Positions 166 to 45,946 of a stretch of 64,000 nucleotides of DNA are shown piece by piece; within the stretch, counting starts at the first letter, position 1, and the number at the start of each line of letters is the position of its first letter. A model generated the notes under the pieces. It saw only the letters and a program-made list of their open reading frames with translations. It had not been told where the DNA came from and did no database searches. This stretch comes from an uncultured Lentisphaerota bacterium (GTDB lineage Bacteria > Verrucomicrobiota > Kiritimatiellia > RFP12 > UBA1067), in the NCBI GenBank assembly GCA_900321255.1, contig ONVK01000001.1, forward strand, positions 16,907-80,906. Direction: 5' to 3'. A program made the position numbers and the translations under genes.

Positions 166-240
166 TCGGGCGTGGCGCAGTGGTAGCGCAGTTGACTGTT
201 AATCAATTGGTCGCTGGTTCGAATCCAGCCGCCCGAGCCA
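166..240 (+). tRNA. tRNA-Asn (anticodon GTT)
   Basis: Cloverleaf read by eye: acceptor TCGGGCG/CGCCCGA, D-arm GCGC/AGTGGTAGCGC, anticodon loop CTGTTAA, T-arm GGTTCGAATCC, encoded CCA. Confidence 0.85.
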
Positions 241-265
241 ATTCTCCCTGATGAAGCTTTTAGAT

Positions 266-615
266 GGGGGTGATCCGGTTTCGACGGGACGCGTTGAGGT
301 CGGGTTGCGCGTCGTGGATCCTCGTTGGCCACGTAAAAAACGAGGAAAAAAAGTAATTGCGAACAACGATTACGCTCTCGCCGCCTAATTAACGGCCGCG
401 ATGTCGAAGCGCCGATGTCTGCTGAGCGCCGAGGCATAATTTAGCAGGCCACGCTGCAGGGCTCTCCGCTCGGGCGCTGCAGGGTGCCGAACCGAACGGA
501 TGGAAGGGGATAAGCCCGGACGTCGGCGTACTCCTTCCGAGACCAAAGGCGCCATACACGCGTAGAAGCTCGGTTGATTCCGTTTCGGACAGGGGTTCGA
601 CTCCCCTCACCTCCA
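266..615 (+). ncRNA. ssrA: tmRNA (ssrA), tag peptide ANNDYALAA
   Basis: 5' end GGGGGTGATCCGGTTTCGACGGG matches the tmRNA tRNA-like domain. Internal reading frame gcg aac aac gat tac gct ctc gcc gcc taa at about 358-387. 3' T-arm GGGGTTCGACTCCCC plus acceptor CACCTCC pairing with the 5' end. Six-frame ORFs 389..610 and 441..668 overlapping it are spurious. Confidence 0.85.
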
Positions 616-661
616 GAATAGTGAACGGGTAATAGTGAACAGTGAATAAAAGGAGGCATAC

Positions 662-3713: not shown

Positions 3714-5094
3714 GACGAAGGAGCTGGCGTCCGGCAAGATCGGGCGCCTTCTTTTCAGATACTCGTGGCCCGCGCTGGTCGCGATGGCGCTCAACTCGTT
3801 CTACACCGTCGTCGACCGCGCGTTTATAGGCCACGGCTGCGGCGTCGACGCGATGGCGGGACTTCAGCTCGCGATGCCGGTCGTGATGTTCCTCACGGCG
3901 TTCGGCCCGCTCATAGGCGTTGGACACGCGTCTGTGCTGTCGATCAAGCTCGGCGCGGGCGATCGCATAGCCTGCGAAAAACTGGTTGGCGAGACGGTGG
4001 CGCTCAAGATCGCGTTCTATGCCGTCCTCATTCCGCTTCTCTACGTCTTCATCGATCCTCTGCTCGCCCTCTGCGGCGCGGGCGAGGTAACGCCGGGAGC
4101 GGCGGCCGCCGCGAAGTCGTATCTCCAGATCGTCCTCTTTTCGCATATCTTCTCGCATCTCGCGTTCGGCCTTTCCGCTCTGCACCGCGCTGAGGGAGGG
4201 GCGATCCGCTCGATGATGTGCATGATCGTCGGCTTCGGCGCGAACATCGTGCTCGATCCGATTCTCATCTTCGGCTTCGGCCTCGGCGTTGCGGGCGCGG
4301 CGTGGGCGACGAACGTCGCGATGCTGCTTTCTTGCCTCTGGGCGTTTTCATACTACTGGACTGGCCGGAGCGTCGTCAGGCTCAGGCTGCGCCGCATATG
4401 GATCTACCCGCAGCTTCTCGCGCGGACGCTCTCCATCGGCCTTGCGCCGTTTCTCCAGCAGCTTATGAGCGCGGTCATCATCGCCTCTCTCCAGATTGCG
4501 TTCACGAAGTGGATGCCCGATGAGGATGCGCGTACGGCGGAGATCGCCTCTCTCGGCGTCTTCAGCAGCGCGCTAATCCTCGTCATCATGCCGATACTCG
4601 GCTGCCAGCAGGGGCTTCAGCCGATCTTCGGGTACAACTGGGGGGCGAGGAACTTCCGCCGCGTCCTCGAAACCCTCAAGACCGGTTTCCTCGTCACGAC
4701 CGTCCTCTGCGTACTGGCGTTCGTCGTTCAGGTATTGCCGCCTTTCCCGACGTGGCTTGCGAGACTCTTCGTCGACAACGCCAACGAAGACCTTGTCGCC
4801 CTGTGTGCGCACGACCTTGCGCTTTCGAACTGCATGATCTGGACGATTTCGATCAACGTCGTCGCGACGACGTACTTCCAGTCGATCGGCAAGCCGGTTG
4901 TCGCCATCGTGCTTTCCCTTCTCCGGCAGGGGCTCGTGCTTCTCCCCATCATCTGGTTCCTTCCTCATTTTCTCGACGACAAGCCGTTCGCGATATGGCT
5001 TTCAATGCCGGTTTCCGACGTCCTCTGCCAGCTTGCTACGCTCCTGCCGCTTCTCCTGCACGCGCGTTTTCTCTCCCGTGTCAGGTCACGCTGA
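3694..5094 (+). CDS. MATE family multidrug efflux transporter
   Basis: 466 aa with 12 predicted TM segments and MATE-type N-terminal and mid-protein repeats (NSFYTVVDRAFIGH, GLQLAMPV). Confidence 0.8.
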   Translation: MSLSSSETKELASGKIGRLLFRYSWPALVAMALNSFYTVVDRAFIGHGCGVDAMAGLQLAMPVVMFLTAFGPLIGVGHASVLSIKLGAGDRIACEKLVGETVALKIAFYAVLIPLLYVFIDPLLALCGAGEVTPGAAAAAKSYLQIVLFSHIFSHLAFGLSALHRAEGGAIRSMMCMIVGFGANIVLDPILIFGFGLGVAGAAWATNVAMLLSCLWAFSYYWTGRSVVRLRLRRIWIYPQLLARTLSIGLAPFLQQLMSAVIIASLQIAFTKWMPDEDARTAEIASLGVFSSALILVIMPILGCQQGLQPIFGYNWGARNFRRVLETLKTGFLVTTVLCVLAFVVQVLPPFPTWLARLFVDNANEDLVALCAHDLALSNCMIWTISINVVATTYFQSIGKPVVAIVLSLLRQGLVLLPIIWFLPHFLDDKPFAIWLSMPVSDVLCQLATLLPLLLHARFLSRVRSR

Positions 5095-16020: not shown

Positions 16021-16998
16021 ATGAAGATCAAGTTCATCGCCAACATCAAGGGGATATACCTTGGATATTCGTTTGAACCTTCCGATGTAGTGACCATTGG
16101 GCGCGAGATCGGAAATACCATTGCGCCGATAAACGTTGACGGCTTTTCGCGTCATCACGCGCGCATCTTCTTCAAGGACGGTGCATGGTATGTCGAAGAC
16201 GTCGGCAGCACGAACGGCACCTACCGCAACCGCGTGAAGGTCGAAGCCCCGACAAAGATCGAGAAGGGTGATTCGATCAGGTGCGGGCTAATGGAACTTG
16301 CCTCGTTTGAATTCGAACCCTCTGCCGCGCCCGCTCCTGTCACCGCGGCCGAGCCGCCGAAGCCGGTTGCACCGGTCAAGCCCACCGAGACAGTCAAGCC
16401 CATTGAGCCGCCGAAGCCCATTGCGCCGGTCAAGCCCATTGAACCGCCGAAGCCGGTTGCACCGGTCAAGCCAGTCGAGCCGCCAAAGACAGTCGCGCCT
16501 GTCAAGCCGGCGGAGCCAGTTGCCCAGCTTGAGCCAGTGACGCCGCTTGACCCCGTCACGCCTCTAGAACCCGTCGCGCCTCTAGAACCCGTCGCGCCGC
16601 TTGAGCCAGTGACGCCGCTTGAGCCAGTTGCCCAGCTTGAGCCAGTGACGCCGCTTGAGCCGATTACGCCGCTCGAGCCGATCACGCCGCTTGAACCGGT
16701 CGAGGAACTCAAGCCTGTTTCACCTGTGAAGACGGAGAAGGTCCCAACCCCTGTTGCCGCCCCGGCGACGCTTCGCCGTCCGACGATACCGGGGCTGAAG
16801 CCCGGCCTCAAGCCAGGGCTCAAGCTTCCCCAGAAGGGCGGGGCGCTCCCCGCCGGCCTGAAGCTCCCGCCCAAGGGAGGTGCGCTTCCGACGGGCCTCA
16901 AGCTTCCGCCAAAGGGGGGTGCGCTCCCGACGGGCCTCAAGCTTCCGCCCAAGCCCGGTCTCAAGCCCGGTCTCAAGGTCCCCGGCAAGGGCGTATGA
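16021..16998 (+). CDS. FHA-domain protein with proline-rich tandem-repeat tail
   Basis: An N-terminal 100 aa FHA fold ([24 protein letters not shown]). This is followed by repeats [18 protein letters not shown] (x10) and [13 protein letters not shown] (x3). Confidence 0.7.
16330..16990 (+). repeat. coding tandem repeats (three families: about 33-bp, 18-bp and 39-bp units)
   Basis: Directly visible periodicity in the DNA and in the translated PKPxAPVKP / LEPVTP / [13 protein letters not shown] units. Confidence 0.8.
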
Positions 16999-33015: not shown

Positions 33016-35022
33016 ATGGCAAGACTCCTGGACGACGTATATCTCAAGCCGTTTGAGGCGGCGATACGCGGGCGCGCGCAGCATGCCTTCGACCGGGCGC
33101 GCGAACTTACGGCGGGCAAGTGCTCTCTCGCCGACTGGGCCTCTGCGCACGAATACTACGGCCTCCACCGCACGAAGCGCGGGTGGGTGTTCCGCGAATG
33201 GGCGCCGAATGCGACGAGCATGTGGCTCGTCGGTGACTTCTCCAAGTGGAAGATCGACCCCCGCTTCGAGTGCTTCAGGATCCCCAGGACCGACGTCTGG
33301 CAGTGCAAGGTCGCCGCGGGGCTTATCAAGAAGGGCGACAACTACCGTCTTGAAATGCGCTGGGAAGGGGGGCACGGCGAGCGGATCCCCGCGTATGCGC
33401 GCTACGTCGTTCAGGATCCCGAGACCAACCTCTTCTGCGCGCAGGTCTACGAGTCGAAGTACAAGTGGCGCCACCCGTCTCCAACGACCAAGCTCAAGAC
33501 GCCGTTCATCTACGAGGCGCATGTCGGCATGGGCGGCGAGGAGGAGCGTGTCCACACCTACGCGGAGTTCCGCGACAACGTGCTTCCGCGCGTGAAGAAG
33601 GCCGGCTACAACGTCGTCCAGCTCATGGCGATCATGGAGCATCCGTACTACGGCTCCTTCGGCTACCACGTCAGCTCCTTCTTCGCCGCGTCCTCTCGCT
33701 TCGGCACGCCCGACGATCTCAAGTCGCTTGTCGACACCGCGCACGGCATGGGTCTCCGCGTCATCATGGACCTCGTCCATTCGCACGCGGTCAAGAACGA
33801 GCGCGACGGCCTCTCGCTATTCGACGGAACAGACTACCAGTACTTCCATTCCGGCGCCAAGGGGTGGCACAGCGCGTGGGACAGCCGCTGCTTCGACTAC
33901 GGGAAGACCGACGTCATACACTTCCTCCTCTCGAACTGCCGCTTCTGGCTCGACGAATACCGCTTCGACGGCTACCGCTTCGACGGCGTGACCTCCATGC
34001 TTTTCTGGAACCACGGCCTGGGCGATGCGTTCACGAACTACGGCATGTACTTCAACGGATCCGTCGACGACGACGCGTGGGCATACCTCCAGATGGCGAA
34101 CCGCGTCATCCACGAGTCGCATCCCGGCGCGATCACGATCGCCGAGGACGTCTCTGGGATGCCGGGCGTCGCCGCGGGCGCGAAGGACTGCGGCATTGGC
34201 TTCGACTACCGCATGGCGATGGGCGAGCCGGACTTCTGGTTCCGCCTTGCGGAGAAGGTGCGCGACGACGACTGGCCGATGGACGGGATATTCTGGGAGC
34301 TCACGAACAAGCGCGCCGAGGAGAAGGTCGTCTCCTACGTCGAGTCGCATGACCAGGCGCTCGTCGGCGGCAAGACGTTTTTCTTCCAGCTTGCCGACGC
34401 CGCTGTCTACTTTGGCATGGCCAAGGGGCAGCACGGCATCGAGACCGACCGCGCGGTCGCGCTCCACAAGATGGCGCGTCTCGCGACGGCCGCGCTCAAC
34501 GGCGGCGCGTACCTCAACTTCATGGGCAACGAGTTCGGCCACCCCGAGTGGATCGACTTCCCGCGCGCGGAGAACGGCTGGAGCTACCACCACGCCAGGC
34601 GCCTGTGGTCGCTGAGGGACGATCCGAACCTGCGCTTCAAGGGGCTCGCAGACTTCGACGAGACGATGCTTTCGGAGCTGAAGAAGTCGCGCGCGCTCTT
34701 CGGCGGCGGCGCGAGCGCGATCCCGACAAAGCTCGTGGCAAACGAGCCTGACAAGGTGCTTGCGTTCGTGCGCGGCGACATGCTTTTCGTCTTCAACTTC
34801 AATCCGGTGAAGTCGTTCGAGGACTACGGCGTGATAGTGCCGCCGGCGTCCGACTGGAAGCACGTCTTCGACACCGACGAGCCGAGGTTCGAAGGCCAGG
34901 GCCGCATCATGCCGGGGATGACTTATTCCCCGTCGCTCGTCCTCGACCGCGGCGAGCTCATCCAGCAGATAAAGCTCTATCTCCCTGCACGGACCGCGAT
35001 TGTCTTAAGGCGGACAATTTGA
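33016..35022 (+). CDS. glgB: 1,4-alpha-glucan branching enzyme (GH13)
   Basis: GH13 catalytic regions DLVHSH, YRFDGYRFDGVTSML, FMGNEFGHPEW and YVESHDQA. Confidence 0.9.
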   Translation: MARLLDDVYLKPFEAAIRGRAQHAFDRARELTAGKCSLADWASAHEYYGLHRTKRGWVFREWAPNATSMWLVGDFSKWKIDPRFECFRIPRTDVWQCKVAAGLIKKGDNYRLEMRWEGGHGERIPAYARYVVQDPETNLFCAQVYESKYKWRHPSPTTKLKTPFIYEAHVGMGGEEERVHTYAEFRDNVLPRVKKAGYNVVQLMAIMEHPYYGSFGYHVSSFFAASSRFGTPDDLKSLVDTAHGMGLRVIMDLVHSHAVKNERDGLSLFDGTDYQYFHSGAKGWHSAWDSRCFDYGKTDVIHFLLSNCRFWLDEYRFDGYRFDGVTSMLFWNHGLGDAFTNYGMYFNGSVDDDAWAYLQMANRVIHESHPGAITIAEDVSGMPGVAAGAKDCGIGFDYRMAMGEPDFWFRLAEKVRDDDWPMDGIFWELTNKRAEEKVVSYVESHDQALVGGKTFFFQLADAAVYFGMAKGQHGIETDRAVALHKMARLATAALNGGAYLNFMGNEFGHPEWIDFPRAENGWSYHHARRLWSLRDDPNLRFKGLADFDETMLSELKKSRALFGGGASAIPTKLVANEPDKVLAFVRGDMLFVFNFNPVKSFEDYGVIVPPASDWKHVFDTDEPRFEGQGRIMPGMTYSPSLVLDRGELIQQIKLYLPARTAIVLRRTI

Positions 35023-35028
35023 TATAAT
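35020..35028 (+). promoter_or_regulatory. extended -10 promoter TGATATAAT for tRNA-Lys
   Basis: TTTGATATAAT 19 nt upstream of the tRNA 5' end. Confidence 0.45.
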
Positions 35029-35046
35029 ACGCCCCACTTCAGACCT

Positions 35047-35122
35047 CGGACTGTAGCTCAGTTGGTAGAGCACGACACTTTTAATGTTGGGGTCGCGGGT
35101 CCGATCCCCGCCAGTCCGACCA
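35047..35122 (+). tRNA. tRNA-Lys (anticodon TTT)
   Basis: Acceptor CGGACTG/CAGTCCG, D-arm GCTCAGTTGGTAGAGC, anticodon loop CTTTTAA, T-arm GGGTCCGATCCCC, encoded CCA. Confidence 0.85.
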
Positions 35123-35765
35123 CCTCCGAAAGTTGACGGTTGATAGGTGCGCTTCCGTCGCGCGGTTTAGCCGTGTAGAGGTGTAGAGGGGGAGAGTTTG
35201 TAACGCAGAGGCGCGTGCGCGGAGGGGATATTTCGGCTTAAGGCTAAAAATCGCCGCGCCGCCCGATGGCTCGCCCTCGCTTTCGCTTCGGGTTGGCTCG
35301 TGCACCGCACGAGCCACCGACAAGCGGCGGTTACCGCGGGGCTCTCGTTCGGCTACAGGGTCGCGACGGCTCTCACACATCAGACAATTAACCGAGTTTA
35401 GCCATAACCGCCGCGCAAGCGGGGCTCGCGTTTTGTAGCGAGCCAAGCCGAGCGAAGCGAGTGCCGAGCCGTGCCTCGGCGCATATCACTGGTTGCGTAC
35501 GCAAGTCACTCTTACGCCTGCGACCTTCCGCCTGCCTCACCCGCGACCATCGGCTCGGCTTGGCGATAGCCATGCGGCAGAAAACGCATTGCGCCAAAAC
35601 ACGCCCCACCGCGCACGCGCCTTGACTTTCCCCGCCGCTACGCCGACTCTGATCTGCCCCTAATCGACCCTAAACATTACTAATCCGACCTTGCCGCTCG
35701 TGCGCGGCAAATCTGCCGAGATTTATATTTTGCAAAATCTTGCCACTCTACCATGAGTGGTTTTG

Positions 35766-35774
35766 TGGTATAAT
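35766..35774 (+). promoter_or_regulatory. orphan extended -10 promoter TGGTATAAT
   Basis: The 15-mer TTTTGTGGTATAATA is identical to the one at 36154-36168. No ORF in the 390 nt downstream. The perfect palindrome ATTTTGCAAAAT lies at about -43 to -32. Confidence 0.4.
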
Positions 35775-36138
35775 ACCGAACGGCAGAGGGAAAGGATAGT
35801 GTCTGTGTTCTCGGCTTTGGCATTCCGGCGCAGGCCGGGAGTCGCCTCGGCGACGTTATGAGCGACCTAGGCGCGGTCTGCACCGCGACGCGGCCCGGCG
35901 AGTGTCGCGAATACCGAGCGGCGAGAGCTCGAAGAGCGGAGTCGACGCGTTCGCCCGAGGCGAGCTGCCCGGCCGGAGCCGGACTTGCAGGCGGCAATCG
36001 GCGAAGGAGTGTTTCGGCGCGACGATTGGAGGGCGCAAGAATCGCGCCACAAGAAGGCAAATCGCGCGCGTCCGCTTAGCCCGGCACGAGCACAGGCGAA
36101 AAATCGTGAAACTCCAGCGCCTATGTCGCCTATGTCGG

Positions 36139-36166
36139 TGACCGATTGGGGATTTTGTGGTATAAT
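36139..36166 (+). promoter_or_regulatory. promoter (-35 GTGACC, TGGTATAAT)
   Basis: The -10 ends 7-8 nt before the ATG at 36174, giving a leaderless start for the DUF1080 lipoprotein. Confidence 0.5.
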
Positions 36167-36173
36167 AGTGCGC

Positions 36174-37136
36174 ATGAACACGAAAATACTCTCTACGTTG
36201 GCGGCGGGGCTTGCCCTCGCCGGGTGCTGCACATGCGACTTCGGCGTCGATCCCAAGGATCCGGTCGTCGGCAACTGGGGCCTCAAGCTCGGCTACGAGA
36301 GCATGAACGCCGGCCACATGATCGTCTCGCGCGACGCGGACGGCAAGGCGCAGGCGCTTGTCCTCTGGCGCTGGGCTTCTCCGATACCGATGAACAACGT
36401 CGTCGTTGACGGCGGCAAGATCACGTTCGACCATCCGTGGGGCTTCAAGTTCGAGGGTGCTGTCAACGGCAACGAGCTTGTGGCAACCGCGACAAAGAAG
36501 GACGGCAAGGTCGAGACGACCGTCACCGGCTGGCGCAACCCCGTCATCAAGCCCGCGTCGACGAAGGACGCGAAGCTCGGCGAGCCGATCGATCTCCTTG
36601 CCGACGGCCTCGACGGCTGGAAACTGATGGACGAGAAGGCCAAGAACGGCTGGAAGTTCAAGGACGGCGTGCTTTCAAACGAGCTCGGCCTCAAGCCCGA
36701 CGGCTCCTGGGCGGGCGGCGGCGCAAACCTCATGTCGAAGCGCACCGACTTCTACGACTTCAACCTCGAGTACGACGTTCGCGTGCCGAAGAAGTCCAAT
36801 TCGGGTGTATATCTCCGCGGCCGCTACGAGTGCCAGGTGCTCGACAGCTACGGCCAGCCCGTGAACGAGCACAACATGGCCGCCTACTACGGCCGCGTCG
36901 TGCCGAAGGTCGCCGCCGAGAAGCCCGCGGGCGAGTGGCAGCACGTCTCCGTCACGCTCTACAAGCGCCATCTCACCGTCGTCCTCAACGGCGTCACCAT
37001 CATCGAAGACGCGCCTGTCGTCGGCATCACCGGCGGCGCGATCGACGCGAACGAGTTCGTGCCCGGCCCCATCTATCTCCAGGGCGACCACTCCGACGCG
37101 GACTTCAAGAACATGATCCTTCGCCCCGCGAAGTAG
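36174..37136 (+). CDS. DUF1080 (3-keto-disaccharide hydrolase-like, LamG fold) lipoprotein
   Basis: Lipoprotein signal MNTKILSTLAAGLALAGC. C-terminal VYLRGRYECQVLDSY...GPIYLQGDHS...FKNMIL is the DUF1080 signature. The track ORF 35985..37136 is over-extended upstream. Confidence 0.7.
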   Translation: MNTKILSTLAAGLALAGCCTCDFGVDPKDPVVGNWGLKLGYESMNAGHMIVSRDADGKAQALVLWRWASPIPMNNVVVDGGKITFDHPWGFKFEGAVNGNELVATATKKDGKVETTVTGWRNPVIKPASTKDAKLGEPIDLLADGLDGWKLMDEKAKNGWKFKDGVLSNELGLKPDGSWAGGGANLMSKRTDFYDFNLEYDVRVPKKSNSGVYLRGRYECQVLDSYGQPVNEHNMAAYYGRVVPKVAAEKPAGEWQHVSVTLYKRHLTVVLNGVTIIEDAPVVGITGGAIDANEFVPGPIYLQGDHSDADFKNMILRPAK

Positions 37137-37139
37137 GCC

Positions 37140-37871
37140 ATGAACGCGCTTTTTGCCATTGTCGCGCTCGTCGCGGCCGCGGCGGCGACGAACAAGTCGC
37201 CGGAATGTCCGTCTTCCGTCCCGCCCGGCACGTGGCCGGACGGGAAGAAGGCGGCGTTCTACCTCTCGTTCGACGACGGCTGCCCTACGCAGACGAAGAA
37301 CGTCTTTCCGCTTCTCGAGAAGTACCGCATTCCAGGCACGTTCTATGTGTGCCCTGAATGGGATCTTTTCAAGAAATACGAGGCAGCGTGGTCGAACGCC
37401 AACGAGTACGTCTTCCTCGGCAACCACACGATGACCCACGGCAAGATTCCCGACAAGGCGGCACTTGACAAGGAACTTGCGGGGTGCAACGCTGCGATAG
37501 CGCGACTGCGCCCAGGCCAGAAGGGGCCAATCTCCTTCGCGATTCCATCTGCGGAGTCTATGCACAGTGTACTCGAGATAACCGACGAGGAAATCGCCGA
37601 GACATACAAGCGCCACAACCTCGTGGAGCGCTGGCTCTGGCACGGATATCCCGTCCAGTGCAAGACCATCCCCGAGATGGAGGCGTATGTCGACGAGGTC
37701 ATCGAGTCGGGCGGCGTCGGGCATATGGACTTCCACGGCGTTGGGGGCGATTGGCTTGATCCGGGGCTCGAGTACTTCGAGGCCCTGATGAAGAAACTGG
37801 ATTCACGGCGCAGCGAACTGTGGTTCGCAACTCATATCCAGATCTACGAGCGGCTGAACCGGAAAAAATAA
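37140..37871 (+). CDS. polysaccharide deacetylase (NodB-domain) family protein
   Basis: LSFDDG, FYV and LGNHTMTHG motifs of CE4 deacetylases. Signal peptide present. Confidence 0.7.
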   Translation: MNALFAIVALVAAAAATNKSPECPSSVPPGTWPDGKKAAFYLSFDDGCPTQTKNVFPLLEKYRIPGTFYVCPEWDLFKKYEAAWSNANEYVFLGNHTMTHGKIPDKAALDKELAGCNAAIARLRPGQKGPISFAIPSAESMHSVLEITDEEIAETYKRHNLVERWLWHGYPVQCKTIPEMEAYVDEVIESGGVGHMDFHGVGGDWLDPGLEYFEALMKKLDSRRSELWFATHIQIYERLNRKK

Positions 37872-37886
37872 AAAAACAGGAAATTG

Positions 37887-37913
37887 CCCCCTTGCGTTCG
37901 CAAGGGGGTTTTT
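37887..37913 (+). terminator. intrinsic terminator
   Basis: CCCCCTTG-CGTTCG-CAAGGGGG hairpin followed by TTTTT. The U-tract overlaps the TTTTGG of the next promoter. Confidence 0.6.
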
Positions 37914-37921
37914 GGTATACT
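37913..37921 (+). promoter_or_regulatory. extended -10 promoter TGGTATACT for tRNA-Ala/tRNA-Arg
   Basis: TTTTTGGTATACT 20 nt upstream of tRNA-Ala. Confidence 0.45.
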
Positions 37922-37941
37922 ATATGCCGTTTCCACGGATT

Positions 37942-38017
37942 GGGGAAGTAGCTCAGTTGGTAGAGCATCACGTTCGCAACGTGGGGGTCGAGAGTTCGAA
38001 TCTCTTCTTCTCCACCA
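37942..38017 (+). tRNA. tRNA-Ala (anticodon CGC)
   Basis: Acceptor GGGGAAG/CTTCTCC (G3-U70 wobble typical of tRNA-Ala), anticodon loop TTCGCAA, T-arm GAGAGTTCGAATCTCTT, encoded CCA. Confidence 0.85.
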
Positions 38018-38036
38018 TCCTTTCCGGAGGCTACGT

Positions 38037-38113
38037 GGGACTGTAGCTCAACTGGACAGAGCGACGGTTTCCTAAACCGTAGGTTCCGGGTTCGATTCCC
38101 GGCAGTCCCACCA
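38037..38113 (+). tRNA. tRNA-Arg (anticodon CCT)
   Basis: Acceptor GGGACTG/CAGTCCC, anticodon stem ACGGT/ACCGT with loop TTCCTAA, T-arm CCGGGTTCGATTCCCGG, encoded CCA. Confidence 0.85.
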
Positions 38114-38149
38114 ATGATGCCGGCTCCCCGGCAGAAGGAATATGATAGA

Positions 38150-38749
38150 ATGAACATCGTCTGCCTGGATCTCGAAGGCGTCCTCGTGCCGGAGATATGG
38201 ATTGCGTTCGCCGAGAAGACGGGGATTCCCGAATTCCGCCGCACCACGCGCGACGAACCCGACTACGACAAGCTCATGCACTACCGCATCGACCTCCTCG
38301 ACAAGTATGGGCTCAAGCTTCCGCAGATACAGGATGTGATCGGCTCCATGCGCCCGCTCATCGGCGCGGAGGAGTTCCTCGACCAGCTCCGCGAGCGGAC
38401 CCAGGTGCTCATTCTCTCCGACACTTTCGACCAGTTCTCGCGTCCGCTCATGAAGAAGCTCAACTGGCCCGCGATCTTCTGCAATTCGCTCACTGTTTCC
38501 GATGACGGCCGCATCACGGGCTACAAGATGCGCTGCCCGCAGTCGAAGCTCACGACCGTGAAGGCCCTGCAGAGCTGCGGTTTCGACACGATAGCCGCAG
38601 GCGACAGCTTCAACGACCTCGGCATGATCCGCGCGTCGAAGGCAGGTTTCCTTTTCCGCTCGACCGACGCGATAAAGAAGGCCAACCCCGACATTCCGGC
38701 GTTCGAGACGTACGACGACTTCCTGAACGCGATTTTCGCCGCGCTCTGA
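38150..38749 (+). CDS. thrH: HAD-family phosphoserine phosphatase / homoserine phosphotransferase (ThrH-like)
   Basis: MNIVCLDLEGVLVPEIWIAFAEKTGI...TTRDEPDYDKLM closely matches Pseudomonas ThrH (MEIACLDLEGVLVPEIWIAFAEKTGI). HAD motifs DxD and AAGDSFND. Confidence 0.75.
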   Translation: MNIVCLDLEGVLVPEIWIAFAEKTGIPEFRRTTRDEPDYDKLMHYRIDLLDKYGLKLPQIQDVIGSMRPLIGAEEFLDQLRERTQVLILSDTFDQFSRPLMKKLNWPAIFCNSLTVSDDGRITGYKMRCPQSKLTTVKALQSCGFDTIAAGDSFNDLGMIRASKAGFLFRSTDAIKKANPDIPAFETYDDFLNAIFAAL

Positions 38750-42560: not shown

Positions 42561-43376
42561 ATGACCGATTTGTCCGAAATCCTCGATGGTGTCCGCGGCA
42601 AGATCGCCGCGGCGTGTGCGCGTGTCGGACGCGACCCTAACGAAGTCGAAATCGTCGCCGTCACCAAGACCCACGGCGCGGAGGTAGTGAAGGAGGCGTG
42701 GGACGCCGGGCTTACGATCGTCGGCGAAAACAAGGTGCAGGAGGCGGCGTGGAAAAAGCCAGCGAGCGTCTCCGGTCCGTCGTGGCACCTGATAGGCCAC
42801 CTCCAGTCGAACAAGGTTCGCCACGCGCTTGAGATCTTCGACTTCATCCACTCCGTCGATTCGATAAAGCTCGCGGACAGGATCAACTTCATTGCCGACG
42901 AAATCGGCGCGTCGCCACATATCCTTCTTGAAGTAAACGTCTCCGGCGAGAAGTCGAAGAGCGGCATGAAGCCAGAAGAGGTCGAGCCGACCATCAAGCA
43001 CATCGTCGAGTCGTGCCCACGAATCACTCTTGAGGGGCTTATGACTATGGCTCCGTTTAGCGAGAATCCCGAAGACGCGAGGCCGTATTTCCGCAGGCTG
43101 CGCGAGATGCGCGACGACCTCGAGTCGCGGCTTGGCGTCGGGCTTCCGCGCCTTTCGATGGGTATGAGCGGAGACTACGAAGTCGCCGTCGAGGAAGGCG
43201 CGACATGGGTCAGGCTTGGCACGGTGCTCTTTGGCGAGAGGCCAAAGGTCAAGCGTGTCGCCGCGTCGGAGGGCGACGACGGCACGACGCCGGGCGGCGA
43301 CACCGATACATACGCTGGCTTCGGCGGCCTTGATTCTTACTCTGGCGCCGGCCCGACGGCCAAAGTGCTGGACTGA
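42561..43376 (+). CDS. yggS: YggS-family pyridoxal-phosphate homeostasis protein
   Basis: VAVTKTH (PLP lysine), HLIGHLQSNK and LSMGMSGD motifs. Has an unusual roughly 40-aa Gly/Asp-rich C-terminal extension. Confidence 0.8.
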   Translation: MTDLSEILDGVRGKIAAACARVGRDPNEVEIVAVTKTHGAEVVKEAWDAGLTIVGENKVQEAAWKKPASVSGPSWHLIGHLQSNKVRHALEIFDFIHSVDSIKLADRINFIADEIGASPHILLEVNVSGEKSKSGMKPEEVEPTIKHIVESCPRITLEGLMTMAPFSENPEDARPYFRRLREMRDDLESRLGVGLPRLSMGMSGDYEVAVEEGATWVRLGTVLFGERPKVKRVAASEGDDGTTPGGDTDTYAGFGGLDSYSGAGPTAKVLD

Positions 43377-45946
43377 TGTTCCCAGTTGAAGAGAAGATAG
43401 ATGATATTCGTCGCGCGCTCGCGGCGAACAGGGATGTTGTCCTCACTGCGCCTCCCGGAAGCGGCAAGACTACTTGCGTGCCGCCGGCGCTCTTGGATGA
43501 GCCGTGGCTTGTGGGCAAGAAGATCGTCATGCTTGAACCGCGGCGGCTTGCCGCGCGCAACTGCGCGGCCTACATCGCGCGTAGACGCGGCGAGGCGGTT
43601 GGAGGCACCGTCGGCTACCAGGTGCGGCTTGAGCGCAAGATTTCCGCGGCAACGCGGCTTGAGATCGTGACGGAAGGGCTGCTCACTCAGCGTCTTCTTT
43701 CAGACCCGGAGCTTTCGGATGTCGGGCTCGTGATCTTCGATGAATTCCACGAGCGCTCGCTCCCCTGCGACACCGCGTTTGCGCTCGCGCTCGAAGTGCG
43801 ACGTGCGCTTAGGCCGGATCTTCGCATCCTTGTCATGTCAGCGACGCTCGACGCCGATGAAGTCGCCGCGCATCTCGGTGACGCCGACATCATTCGCGCC
43901 GAAGGGCGCATGTTTCCTGTTGAGACAAATTACCTTGGCGACATGTCGATGACGGCGGCGATATCGAAGGCACTGAAGGAAACGGATGGCGACATGCTTT
44001 GCTTTCTGCCGGGAGAGGGCGAGATAAGGCGCGTGCAGGAGGCGGTTGGCGCAGTGCGCGATGTCGATGTTCTTCCGCTCTACGGCAGTCTCCCCAAGGA
44101 AGAGCAGGACAGGGTATTTGAGCGCGGCGGACGGCGCAAGGTCATTCTCGCTACGTCGATCGCCGAGACTTCGGTTACGATCGAGGGCATTTCGACGGTG
44201 ATCGACTCGGGGCTTATGCGTGTGCCGCGCTTTCGCCCTGCGTCCGGGATGTCGGGGCTTGTGACTTTGCCGCTCACGCAAGACCGCGCAGAGCAGCGCA
44301 GAGGTCGCGCGGGGCGCTTGCGCGCGGGAGTTTGCTATCGGCTCTGGAGCGAGGGCGAGCAGCAGTCGCGTCCAAAGAAGATGATGCCAGAGATACTTGA
44401 CGCCGACCTTTGCTCGCTCGTTCTGACAAGCGCGGCGTGGGGTGCGCTTGGGCGCGAGGATCTGCCGTGGATGACACCGCCACCTGCGTCGAACTGGGAT
44501 CAGGCGGTAGGGCTTCTCAAGATGCTTGGTGCGCTTGATGGCGACGGACGGCTCACGAAGAAGGGCGAGGCGATGGCGAAGCTCCCGATGCATCCAAGGT
44601 TGGCGAATATGGTGATTGGTGGTAGCCGTATAGAAGGGGTTGGTGAGGCGTCGCTGCTGGCGGCGATTGTAGAAGAGGGGAATAGAAGCCGCGAGACGGA
44701 TATTAGGAAGATTGCCGAGGAGATCAGGGAGACGCCGAACCGTCCGTTTTCGAAAAGGGTGCTTCAGTTGGCACGGCGGTTTAACAAAGGGTCAGACCCC
44801 TCTGACACAGTAGCTGATACAGCTAAAGCTGCAATCAGCTACTGCAGTCAGAAAGGTCTGACCCTAGAAGGCTCTCTTCTTGCGCTTGCGTATCCTGACA
44901 GGGTTGCGAAGAACCGGGGAAATGGAACGTTCCGCATGGTGTCTGGGCGCGGCGCATTCCTCGACCAGTCCGATCCGCTTGCGAAGTCGCCTTATCTCGT
45001 CTGCTGCGAGCTCGACGACCGCGCGGGCGATGCGAAGGTCTTTCTTGGCTGTCCCATTGGCGAGGACGAGATCGAAGACCTCTTCGGCGATCGCATAACC
45101 GAGGAGCCGTACTGCGCGTGGGACAGGCAGAACGACCGCGTGAAGAGCGTCGTTCGCCGCAAGCTTGGCGAGATGACCCTTGGGGAGAAGCCGCTCTCGG
45201 CGGCAGACTCGCGCCACTCGGTGGACGTCGACGCAAGGATATCGGCGGCGCTTCTTGATGGCATTCGCCAGAAGGGAGTCGAGAATCTTCCCTGCTGGAC
45301 GAAGGAGTCGCGGCAATTCCGCGCAAGAATGGCGTTTTTGTCGCGGGTTTCTGGAAAAGGGTCAGACCCCTCTGACACAGTAACTGACACAGCTAAAGCT
45401 GCAGTCAGCTACTGCAGTCAGAAGGGTCTGACCCTAGACGCCAATAAAAATGGGGGTGAGTGGCCAAATCCAACTGATGGGGCGATTCTTGCCGCGTTGC
45501 CTGGTTTCATCGGCGGGATGACGAAGTGGAAGGATTTGGAGCGGCTTGACCTCTTTTCGGTCTTTGACTTTATGCTCGCGGAAGCGGGGCATGATAGGCG
45601 CGAGCTCGATCGTCTTGCGCCTACGCGCATGGAGGTTCCGAGCGGCAGCCACATGCTGATTCACTACGAGGGTGACGAACCGACGTGCGAAGTGCGGCTT
45701 CAGGAATGTTTCGGGCTTATGGAGACGCCGAAGGTCGCAGGCGGGAAAGTTCCTGTCGTAATGACGCTTCTTTCGCCTGCACAGCGGCCAATCCAGATAA
45801 CGAAAGACCTTGCGGGATTCTGGCGAGAAGGGTACCAGCTTGTCCGCAAGGACATGCGTGGCCGCTACCCGAAGCACTATTGGCCGGAAGACCCGTTCAC
45901 CGCCGTCGCGACACGTCGCACCGTCAAGCGTGCTGGCCAGGCCTGA
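43376..45946 (+). CDS. hrpB: ATP-dependent RNA helicase HrpB (with two in-frame 27-codon palindromic insertions)
   Basis: DEAH-box helicase motifs (GSGKTT, DEFHER, SAT), the HA2 and C-terminal HrpB domains. 856 aa versus about 809 typical; the excess is accounted for by two copies of KGSDPSDTV.DTAKAA.SYCSQKGLTL. Confidence 0.85.
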   Translation: MFPVEEKIDDIRRALAANRDVVLTAPPGSGKTTCVPPALLDEPWLVGKKIVMLEPRRLAARNCAAYIARRRGEAVGGTVGYQVRLERKISAATRLEIVTEGLLTQRLLSDPELSDVGLVIFDEFHERSLPCDTAFALALEVRRALRPDLRILVMSATLDADEVAAHLGDADIIRAEGRMFPVETNYLGDMSMTAAISKALKETDGDMLCFLPGEGEIRRVQEAVGAVRDVDVLPLYGSLPKEEQDRVFERGGRRKVILATSIAETSVTIEGISTVIDSGLMRVPRFRPASGMSGLVTLPLTQDRAEQRRGRAGRLRAGVCYRLWSEGEQQSRPKKMMPEILDADLCSLVLTSAAWGALGREDLPWMTPPPASNWDQAVGLLKMLGALDGDGRLTKKGEAMAKLPMHPRLANMVIGGSRIEGVGEASLLAAIVEEGNRSRETDIRKIAEEIRETPNRPFSKRVLQLARRFNKGSDPSDTVADTAKAAISYCSQKGLTLEGSLLALAYPDRVAKNRGNGTFRMVSGRGAFLDQSDPLAKSPYLVCCELDDRAGDAKVFLGCPIGEDEIEDLFGDRITEEPYCAWDRQNDRVKSVVRRKLGEMTLGEKPLSAADSRHSVDVDARISAALLDGIRQKGVENLPCWTKESRQFRARMAFLSRVSGKGSDPSDTVTDTAKAAVSYCSQKGLTLDANKNGGEWPNPTDGAILAALPGFIGGMTKWKDLERLDLFSVFDFMLAEAGHDRRELDRLAPTRMEVPSGSHMLIHYEGDEPTCEVRLQECFGLMETPKVAGGKVPVVMTLLSPAQRPIQITKDLAGFWREGYQLVRKDMRGRYPKHYWPEDPFTAVATRRTVKRAGQA
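44786..44866 (+). repeat. 81-bp near-perfect palindromic element inserted in-frame in hrpB (copy 1)
   Basis: AAAGGGTCAGACC...CTGACACAGTAGCTGAT-ACAGCTAAAGCTGCA-ATCAGCTACTGCAGTCAG...GGTCTGACCCTAG. Arms are mutually complementary; 27 codons. Confidence 0.8.
45356..45436 (+). repeat. 81-bp palindromic element inserted in-frame in hrpB (copy 2, same orientation, 570 bp downstream)
   Basis: About 94% identical to copy 1 and encodes the same 26-27 aa peptide. Confidence 0.8.

What the first reader, a model, noticed from the sequence alone, without database searches (positions are those of the whole stretch)
35123..36173. About 1 kb ORF-free, highly structured region downstream of tRNA-Lys, carrying duplicated promoters
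There is no protein-like ORF; the six-frame ORFs here have Arg/Ala-rich artifact composition. The region contains a long imperfect inverted repeat with about 85-bp arms (35268-35355 pairing with 35400-35470) that predicts a large bulged hairpin, and a REP-like CGTGTAGA copy at 35167-35188. It also has the palindromes TTGCGTACGCAA and ATTTTGCAAAAT, the latter at -43 to -32 of a promoter. The 15-mer TTTTGTGGTATAATA occurs identically twice (35761 and 36154): the first copy would drive a roughly 390-nt non-coding transcript and the second the DUF1080 lipoprotein. Candidates are an sRNA or a 6S-like large-hairpin RNA, or the decayed remnant of an element integrated at tRNA-Lys.
Basis: partly seen in the sequence, partly recalled or inferred. 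Interest (0 to 1): 0.6.

Follow-up and report, generated by a model that had tools for sequence, protein, structure and literature searches.

The report
Scar of a lost defence islet
The 1-kb gene-free stretch after tRNA-Lys is most likely leftover DNA from a small, strain-variable inserted islet that lost its anti-phage genes, which leaves an orphan promoter, a fragment of a jumping gene and an unstable DNA palindrome; nothing points to a conserved RNA gene.

Summary
Window 35123-36173 (a rumen/gut Kiritimatiellae genome) has no codon periodicity and no protein-family hits. It contains a strong 207-nt imperfect palindrome and two exact copies of TTTTGTGGTATAATA.

The RNA-gene reading does not hold. 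There is no Rfam hit. The roughly 390 nt after the first promoter folds no better than shuffled sequence.

The whole region is a presence/absence polymorphism. Most strains with the identical glgB protein have only about 25 nt between tRNA-Lys and the DUF1080 promoter. Other relatives carry an RND pump, a regulator or a glycosidase there.

The closest relatives have the same flanks, plus a 3.9-kb low-GC three-gene cassette (SNIPE/PD-lambda-1-like nuclease, an unknown protein, an ion channel). It sits exactly between the first promoter and the 390-nt tail, bounded by 9-bp GGTATAATA repeats. That promoter travels with the cassette at unrelated loci. In this window it is therefore most likely an orphan left by a deletion.

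Positions 35822-35989 match the subterminal repeats of an IS30-family element. The palindrome exists in four indel states among near-identical strains. No integrase or att repeat was found.

Verdict: an ordinary hot-spot scar of low interest.

The parts
35047..35122 (+). tRNA-Lys (UUU). It marks the left border of the variable site. Its own extended -10 promoter lies at 35000-35028.
   Evidence: ARAGORN and Rfam; promoter scan. The tRNA is 100% identical in L001, L007 and L009, and sequences diverge immediately after its 3' end.
35123..35265 (.). Left flank A of the islet. Non-coding, not structured, origin unknown. Contains the tandem GTGTAGAG x2 (35173-35188).
   Evidence: Fold z = +1.0. 35123-35161 and 35205-35245 are shared with the diverged allele L044/L049; the rest is not. 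Absent from empty alleles.
35266..35472 (.). Long imperfect palindrome. Arms are about 35272-35334 and 35404-35466, and the centre is 35335-35403. It is indel-polymorphic between near-identical strains.
   Evidence: z = -5.7 / -4.4. Arms are missing in L001, 41 nt of the centre are missing in L066, the whole unit is absent in L044/L049, and it is intact in L068 and L070. No other copy in the window or in the roughly 0.4-0.5 Mb of related loci held when searched.
35473..35695 (.). Left flank B. Non-coding, moderately structured, origin unknown. Contains the palindrome TTGCGTACGCAA (35493-35504).
   Evidence: Fold z = -3.0 for 35473-35765. Present only in window-type alleles (L001, L048, L066, L068, L070) and replaced in L044/L049.
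35696..35775 (+). Promoter region P1 of the lost cassette. The extended -10 TGGTATAAT is at 35766-35774 and the 15-mer at 35761-35775. Two weak terminator-like hairpins lie just upstream (35705-35718, 35742-35761). P1 is now an orphan.
   Evidence: In L001, L044, L048, L049 and L068 this promoter is followed by the three-gene cassette. Homology to the cassette at unrelated loci begins at GGTTTTGTG[G/C]TATAATAAG. The 15-mer is kept in L044, although the surrounding 80 nt are only 87.5% identical. Terminator scan.
35767..35775 (.). GGTATAATA, the junction of the cassette deletion (9-bp microhomology).
   Evidence: L001 has this 9-mer twice (722-730 and 4594-4602), flanking 3,863 bp of 45-53% GC DNA. 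The window, L066 and L070 have it once, with the same junction GGTATAATACCGAACGG.
35776..35821 (.). Short spacer after the junction. Holds a 20-codon GTG ORF start (35799) that is probably fortuitous.
   Evidence: Read from the sequence. No periodicity. Identical in L001 apart from one base, so conservation gives no information.
35822..35989 (+). Fragment homologous to the roughly 160-nt subterminal inverted repeats of an IS30-family insertion sequence. It has the orientation of the repeat downstream of the transposase gene. The IS tip and the transposase gene are absent.
   Evidence: 71-82% identity to both repeats flanking the transposase gene in L065 and L071-L075. Transposase: NCBIfam IS30 NF033563, E 1.2e-21, 77.6 bits against a cut-off of 80. 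The IS copies continue about 100 nt further, to a shared tip that the window lacks.
35990..36125 (.). Right flank of the islet. Non-coding, origin unknown.
   Evidence: Found only in islet-bearing alleles (L001, L048, L050, L066, L070). Homology with empty alleles resumes at 36126.
36119..36136 (.). Tandem 9-mer GCCTATGTC x2 at the right border of the islet.
   Evidence: Read from the sequence. The motif is single in the empty alleles L007 and L041. In L070 an IS-like tip is inserted at 36128/9.
36126..36173 (+). Native DUF1080 promoter. The 15-mer is at 36153-36167 and TATAAT at 36161-36166. The ATG at 36174 starts 8 nt after the hexamer, i.e. a leaderless-type mRNA.
   Evidence: Conserved upstream of DUF1080 in L001, L003, L007 and L009, and the -10 is conserved in L002-L006. 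Promoter scan. Spacing to the ATG.
36174..37136 (+). DUF1080 (PF06439) lipoprotein gene. It marks the right border of the variable site.
   Evidence: Translation; homologs all carry PF06439.

Best explanation
The region is the gutted shell of a small strain-variable islet. It sits at a recombination and insertion hot spot between the 3' end of tRNA-Lys and the DUF1080 promoter.

In sister strains the same flanks enclose a horizontally acquired, low-GC three-gene cassette: a SNIPE/PD-lambda-1-like membrane nuclease, an unknown protein and a voltage-gated-type ion channel. The cassette is driven by its own extended -10 promoter, P1.

In this strain the cassette was most likely deleted by recombination between two 9-bp GGTATAATA motifs, namely the -10 of P1 and a promoter-like motif after the last gene. 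That fused P1 to the 390-nt right flank.

The right flank is itself debris. About 165 nt of it is a fragment of an IS30-family element's subterminal repeat.

The large hairpin is a DNA palindrome that is being eroded by indels. It is not a selected RNA.

The identity of the two 15-mers reflects two near-consensus promoters of this lineage, not a duplication.

Shown here: the polymorphism, the junctions, the homologies and the lack of coding or RNA-family signal.

Inferred: the direction of the event (deletion rather than insertion); that P1 still fires; and that its transcripts run on into DUF1080, since no terminator is predicted in between.
For: (1) Presence/absence at near-zero flank divergence. 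Of ten loci encoding the identical 668-aa glgB, seven have only about 25 nt of unrelated spacer between tRNA-Lys and the DUF1080 promoter, two have the cassette-less islet, and one has the islet with the cassette. More distant relatives also show the empty site (L007, L041, L042).

(2) Different cargo at the same site: an RND pump in L009/L003, an AraC-type regulator in L043 and a glycosidase-like gene in L047 (these two are my reading of the translated ORFs, not scanned).

(3) L001 (98% DUF1080 identity) has the same left flank at 98-99% identity apart from the missing hairpin arms. It then has 3,863 bp of 45-53% GC DNA with three genes, then the same right flank at 99%. The cassette is bounded by exact GGTATAATA repeats. 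PADLOC matches PD-Lambda-1 at 2e-68.

(4) At unrelated loci (L051-L060, 86-88% identical cassette) homology starts at the promoter GGTTTTGTG[G/C]TATAATAAG, with the same spacing to the 5' UTR, and ends at the ion-channel stop codon. None of the window's flanks occur there.

(5) Both left-flank types (L001-type and L044/L049-type) carry the cassette with the same junction.

(6) The IS30-family repeat homology was seen in six IS copies.

(7) There is no coding periodicity, no Pfam hit, no Rfam hit, and no excess structure or terminator in the 390-nt tail.

(8) The hairpin occurs in four indel states.
Against: The direction of the event is inferred. An insertion of the cassette with a 9-bp target duplication into a pre-existing promoter would leave the same sequences.

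SNPs split the left flank into two groups, and each group holds alleles with and without the cassette. So either the deletion recurred or the haplotypes recombined.

About 500 nt of the flanks (35123-35265, 35473-35695, 35990-36125) have no identified origin. Their GC content (58-65%) is host-like, which is unusual for junk intergenic DNA.

No transcript data were available, so a function for P1 read-through is not excluded.

All related sequences are metagenome assemblies. The single arm-less hairpin allele (L001) could be an assembly error.
Confidence: 0.72

Rival explanations
1. Landing-pad model. The cassette-less 1-kb region is the older state. The three-gene cassette later inserted into the -10 of a resident promoter, duplicating 9 bp (GGTATAATA) as a target-site duplication.
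For: An exact 9-bp direct repeat flanks a clearly foreign, low-GC insert in L001. A 9-bp duplication is typical of several transposon families (own knowledge). Cassette-less alleles occur in at least three assemblies (window, L066, L070).
Against: The cassette has no transposase, and I saw no terminal inverted repeats when reading its ends; this was not formally scanned. At unrelated loci the cassette brings the same promoter at the same spacing to its 5' UTR, so the promoter belongs to the cassette. Two diverged left-flank types both carry the cassette with one identical junction.
Confidence: 0.12
2. P1 drives a functional non-coding RNA, or a long regulatory 5' leader that modulates DUF1080 expression.
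For: P1 is a perfect copy of the lineage's strongest promoter motif. No terminator is predicted before DUF1080. The cassette-less haplotype persists in several samples.
Against: The 393-nt product folds no better than shuffles (z = -0.13). About 40% of it is an IS fragment. The segment exists only in this haplotype and is absent from most conspecific strains. There is no Rfam match.
Confidence: 0.08
3. The hairpin is a small non-autonomous mobile element: MITE / REPIN-like, or two palindromic units mobilised by a hairpin-recognising transposase.
For: The two 63-nt arms are related to each other in inverted orientation (53% identity in an ungapped alignment), and the left one is itself palindromic (I3). 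Both arms are absent from L001 while the centre stays. The lineage carries many IS elements.
Against: No further copy was found in the 64-kb window or in about 0.4-0.5 Mb of related loci. No target-site duplication is evident. A MITE should insert or leave as one unit including its centre. No IS200/IS605- or RAYT-type gene was seen in the loci I annotated.
Confidence: 0.12
4. The hairpin is a 6S-like or other structured housekeeping RNA, or a processed trailer of the tRNA-Lys transcript.
For: Strong fold (z = -5.7). No strong terminator lies between the tRNA and position 35705.
Against: No hit to 6S or to any Rfam family. The - strand folds almost as well, as expected of a DNA palindrome. It is absent from most strains with identical glgB and from L044/L049, and it is truncated in different ways in L001 and L066.
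Confidence: 0.02

Closest known systems
tRNA-adjacent genomic islets / defence-island hot spots (variable cargo next to a tRNA gene)
   Same: It lies directly at the 3' end of a tRNA gene. It is a presence/absence polymorphism among conspecific strains. Relatives carry different cargo at the same site, including an anti-phage gene. The cargo has foreign GC content.
   Different: No integrase occurs in any allele seen, and there is no direct repeat of the tRNA 3' end. In this window the cargo is gone and only the flanks remain.
SNIPE / PD-lambda-1 anti-phage nuclease (PMC13190303; found by a previous genetic screen cited in that paper)
   Same: The first gene of the cassette in sister strains matches the PD-Lambda-1 models (2e-68). 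It has an N-terminal membrane-type segment, a coiled middle region and a C-terminal T5orf172/GIY-YIG-type domain.
   Different: The gene is not in this window; only its promoter is. In these bacteria it is always linked to two further genes (an unknown 345-aa protein and an Ion_trans channel), whereas the paper treats SNIPE as a single protein.
IS30-family insertion sequences and their solo-end remnants
   Same: 35822-35989 is homologous to the repeats that flank an IS30-family transposase gene in inverted orientation in six copies.
   Different: Only a subterminal piece is present; the IS tip and the transposase are absent. The transposase scores 77.6 bits against NCBIfam's 80-bit cut-off. 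Repeats of about 160 nt are much longer than the classical IS30 terminal repeats (own knowledge).
Unstable long DNA palindromes (deletion-prone inverted repeats); REP/REPIN and MITE elements
   Same: Two arms of about 65-85 nt with a short centre, a strong fold on both strands, and several independent indel variants in a population.
   Different: It is single-copy as far as could be searched. The loss of both arms with the centre retained is not the usual outcome of hairpin slippage.
6S RNA (Rfam RF00013)
   Same: A long imperfect hairpin of about 200 nt.
   Different: No covariance-model match, no conservation, and absent from sister strains.

Membership tests
6S RNA / any Rfam family | Match to the family covariance model at or near the gathering score | tested here: not met
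   Only the tRNA passes. The other matches in 34900-36400 have E from 0.09 to 8 and score far below their gathering scores.
6S RNA / housekeeping structured RNA | Presence and conservation in close relatives | tested here: not met
   Absent from 7 of 10 loci with the identical glgB protein, absent from L007/L041/L042, and truncated or replaced in L001, L066 and L044.
Bacterial sRNA gene | Promoter plus intrinsic terminator delimiting a discrete transcript | tested here: not met
   P1 is present, but no terminator-like site lies between 35776 and 36173. Fold z = -0.13.
Bacterial sRNA gene | Detected transcript | not testable with these tools
   No expression data are available.
tRNA-integrating genomic island | Location at the 3' end of a tRNA gene, with presence/absence among strains | tested here: met
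   Sequences diverge right after tRNA-Lys. Empty alleles.
tRNA-integrating genomic island | Tyrosine or serine integrase gene | tested here: not met
   None was found in the window's gap or among the genes annotated in L001, L009, L044, L048-L050 and L068.
tRNA-integrating genomic island | Direct repeat of the tRNA 3' end (att) at the far border | tested here: not met
   The best local alignment of the last 45 nt of the tRNA to the gap scores 16, against a shuffle mean of 17.2.
IS30-family element (remnant) | Sequence homology to the ends of elements that encode an IS30-family transposase | tested here: met
   35822-35989 matches both flanking repeats in L065 and L071-L075 at 71-82% identity.
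IS30-family element (remnant) | Transposase assigned to IS30 by a curated model | tested here: inconclusive
   NF033563 gives E 1.2e-21 and 77.6 bits, just under the 80-bit cut-off. One homolog is named 'IS30 family transposase' by JGI.
IS30-family element (remnant) | Terminal inverted-repeat tip present | tested here: not met
   The IS copies share about 100 further nt ending in ...GTTTACTTTGGCAAACGGCC. The window has unrelated sequence there.
REP / REPIN / MITE | Multiple copies in the genome | tested here: inconclusive
   No second copy of the arms was found in 64 kb or in about 0.4-0.5 Mb of related loci. The rest of this genome could not be searched.
REP / REPIN / MITE | Inserts or excises as one unit, with a target-site duplication | tested here: not met
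   L001 lacks the arms but keeps the centre, and no duplication is evident at the borders.
SNIPE / PD-lambda-1 defence (cassette in sister strains) | Transmembrane segment, DUF4041 and a GIY-YIG/T5orf172 nuclease domain in one protein | tested here: met
   For the L001 protein only: PADLOC PD-Lambda-1 at 2e-68, T5orf172 at 1.5e-15, and a hydrophobic N-terminal segment. Domain definition is from PMC13190303. The gene is absent from the window.

The most novel reading that the evidence does not exclude
The palindrome may record a process that has not been described. The two segments missing in L001 are exactly the two strands of the stem, which would fit a single structure-directed excision acting on folded DNA, or the precise loss of a pair of small hairpin elements of an unknown mobile family. 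Separately, the orphan promoter could have been co-opted as a second, leader-bearing promoter for the DUF1080 lipoprotein.
Probability: 0.06. Interest if true: 0.45.

Novelty: new member of a known kind. Interest (0 to 1): 0.18.

Why it matters
It matters mainly as a caution. A long, GC-rich, gene-free and strongly folding stretch carrying consensus promoters looked like a large non-coding RNA locus. Population comparison showed it to be debris.

It also documents three things in rumen Kiritimatiellae. First, there is a variable site between tRNA-Lys and the DUF1080 gene, and cargo there turns over between strains whose neighbouring glgB protein is identical. Second, the lineage's very uniform extended -10 promoters may themselves serve as microhomology for a deletion. 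Third, a SNIPE-like nuclease travels as a fixed three-gene unit with an ion channel, which may interest phage-defence researchers.

Tried and rejected
- Rfam at gathering and permissive thresholds: nothing but the tRNA.
- Decayed pseudogene: rejected, because there is no GC3 periodicity and no Pfam hit in eight six-frame ORFs.
- Remnant of the RND pump genes that occupy the site in L009/L003: no protein- or DNA-level similarity.
- att repeat of the tRNA 3' end: not above shuffles. The 74% match at 35629-35647 is a chance match.
- Phage or plasmid origin: no blastn hit in either collection. Three 24-26-nt patterns found nothing in viral contigs, and the P1-upstream 22-mer found nothing in JGI metagenomes.
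- Extra copies of the hairpin arms: none, by blastn-short and by an nhmmer profile.
- Similarity of the remaining flanks to the IS30-family, IS110 or DDE_Tnp_1 elements seen in fetched loci: none beyond the 165-nt fragment.
- 'REP-like' GTGTAGAG: not enriched.
- The exact DUF1080 protein of the window is not on record; the exact glgB protein was, and it gave the decisive strain panel.

Full report
**Setting**

The window comes from a Kiritimatiellae genome with about 62% GC. The closest public relatives are goat, cattle, yak and other gut metagenome-assembled genomes.

The finding lies between tRNA-Lys(UUU) at 35047-35122 and a DUF1080/PF06439 lipoprotein gene whose ATG is at 36174. A glgB-like gene ends at 35022.

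**Check of the observation**

- The 1,051-nt gap is truly non-coding. Real genes here show a codon-position GC amplitude of 0.37-0.55, while the gap never exceeds 0.17. Eight six-frame ORFs give no Pfam match.
- The long imperfect palindrome is real. 35266-35472 folds at -120.5 kcal/mol, z = -5.7. The opposite strand folds almost as well (z = -4.4), as a DNA palindrome should.
- Structure elsewhere is unremarkable: z = +1.0 for 35123-35265, z = -3.0 for 35473-35765, and z = -0.13 for the 393 nt downstream of the first promoter.
- The 15-mer TTTTGTGGTATAATA is exact at 35761 and at 36153.
- TGNTATAAT occurs 11 times in the window against 0.09 expected. Four of those copies sit 8-10 nt before the ATG of a long ORF, including DUF1080. 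This is the lineage's generic extended -10 promoter, often for leaderless-type mRNAs, so two identical copies do not imply a duplication.
- The 'REP-like' motif is only a tandem GTGTAGAG x2 and is not enriched.
- Rfam finds nothing but the tRNA.

**Comparison with relatives**

Forty genome loci were found through the DUF1080 protein. Seven metagenome loci were found through the tRNA-Lys promoter. Ten loci encode the identical glgB protein. Together they show that the site is hypervariable.

- Empty alleles. In L007, L041 and L042 about 30 nt separate tRNA-Lys from the DUF1080 promoter.
- Strains with the same glgB protein. Seven of the ten loci shown have about 25 nt of unrelated spacer and then a variant promoter. 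These strains are 99.2-99.4% identical to the window in glgB DNA.
- Other cargo. L009 and L003 carry an RND efflux pair at the site. From reading the translated ORFs, L043 carries an AraC-type regulator and L047 a glycosidase-like gene.
- The 1-kb region is therefore neither conserved nor required.

**What the region is**

L001 (a goat MAG; DUF1080 98% identical) has the same 640-nt left flank at 98-99% identity. It then has P1, then 3,863 bp of 45-53% GC DNA, and then the same 390-nt right flank at 99% identity.

The insert encodes three genes:
- a 596-aa protein matching PADLOC PD-Lambda-1 (2e-68) with a T5orf172 nuclease domain;
- a 345-aa protein with no annotation;
- an Ion_trans channel.

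PD-lambda-1 has been renamed SNIPE, a membrane-bound nuclease that cuts phage DNA during injection (PMC13190303).

The insert is bounded by exact GGTATAATA 9-mers. The window has a single copy, and its sequence equals the left side of P1 joined to the right side of the second motif. L066 and L070 share this junction. L068 is 99.85% identical to the window from glgB to P1 and still carries the cassette. L044 and L049 have a shorter, diverged left flank but the same promoter, the same cassette and, in L049, the same right junction.

**Direction of the event**

The same cassette occurs at 86-88% identity in unrelated contexts (L051-L060). There, homology to L001 begins at the promoter GGTTTTGTG[G/C]TATAATAAG, with identical spacing to the 5' UTR, and it stops at the channel's stop codon. 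None of the window's flanks are present.

The promoter therefore belongs to the cassette. Finding it without the genes argues that the window is a deletion derivative. This is an inference.

SNPs divide the left flank into two groups, and each group contains alleles with and without the cassette. So recurrent deletion at the same microhomology, or recombination between haplotypes, must also have occurred.

**The right flank**

Positions 35822-35989 are 71-82% identical to the roughly 160-nt inverted repeats that flank an IS30-family transposase gene in L065 and L071-L075. The transposase matches NCBIfam NF033563 at E 1.2e-21, scoring 77.6 bits against a cut-off of 80.

The transposase family is very abundant and mostly sits on roughly 2-kb contigs, as multi-copy IS elements do.

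The window's copy has the orientation of the repeat downstream of the transposase gene. It lacks the roughly 100-nt IS tip shared by all six copies, so it is a fragment.

**The hairpin**

It occurs in four states among near-identical strains:
- intact in the window, L068 and L070;
- both 63-nt arms missing with the 69-nt centre kept, in L001;
- 41 nt of the centre missing, in L066;
- the whole segment replaced, in L044/L049.

This is the behaviour of an unstable DNA palindrome under no constraint. The symmetric loss of both arms is unexplained. The arms have no other copy in the sequence available.

**What is not there**

- No integrase in any allele.
- No repeat of the tRNA 3' end.
- No remnant of the RND genes.
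- No phage or plasmid similarity.
- The origin of roughly 500 nt of the flanks remains unknown.

**Mechanism and verdict**

The most likely reading (about 0.7) is a non-functional scar: an orphan cassette promoter, an IS fragment and a decaying palindrome at a variable site next to a tRNA gene.

P1 probably still fires, and with no predicted terminator it would add read-through transcripts with a long leader to DUF1080. That step is inferred only.

The feature is a new instance of a familiar kind and is of low interest.

Noticed in passing
window 44786-44868 and 45356-45438: Two 95%-identical copies of an 83-nt near-perfect palindromic element (DNA fold z = -10.2) lie 570 nt apart inside the open reading frame of an HrpB-type DEAH helicase gene (43376-45946, 856 aa). 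The frame stays open through both. This recalls in-frame palindromic elements such as the Rickettsia RPEs. No copy occurs in the 75 fetched loci.
   Followed up: partly
L001 731-4593 (also L044, L048-L060, L068): A SNIPE/PD-lambda-1-like nuclease gene is always followed by the same unannotated 345-aa gene and an Ion_trans (voltage-gated-type) channel gene. The unit is conserved at 86-99% identity in at least two genomic contexts, and in three contigs it lies next to an IS110-family transposase. It may be a three-gene variant of what the cited paper treats as a single-protein defence.
   Followed up: partly
window 1738, 16005, 36158, 50234 and others: The extended -10 motif TGGTATAAT, preceded by a T-rich stretch, is strongly over-represented (11 copies against 0.09 expected). 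It often ends 8-10 nt before an ATG, which suggests widespread leaderless mRNAs in this Kiritimatiellae lineage.
   Followed up: partly
window about 37864-37941 (between the polysaccharide-deacetylase gene and tRNA-Ala): A second variable spot. L001 and L009 lose similarity here, and L065 has an IS30-family element inserted at the position matching about 37887, next to the near-palindrome TTGCGTTCGCAA at 37892-37903.
   Followed up: no
L070 9114-9251 (matching window 36128/9): An IS-like tip (TTGCAAAAGTAAACG...) is inserted inside the tandem GCCTATGTC repeat just upstream of the DUF1080 promoter. The tandem 9-mer in the window might relate to such insertions.
   Followed up: no
window 16371-16730: A tandem array with an 18-nt period (at least 11 registers of a 108-nt unit) lies inside an ORF, and probably encodes a hexapeptide-repeat protein segment.
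   Followed up: no
window 166-618: tRNA-Asn is immediately followed by the tmRNA gene (tag ANNDYALAA). Rfam also reports an overlapping weaker 'permuted tmRNA' match, which is probably redundant.
   Followed up: no
L061-L069 compared with window 36154-38200: Strains with the identical glgB protein (99.2-99.4% DNA identity) are only 96.5-97% identical on the DUF1080 side. The tRNA-Lys site is therefore also a boundary between recombination tracts.
   Followed up: no
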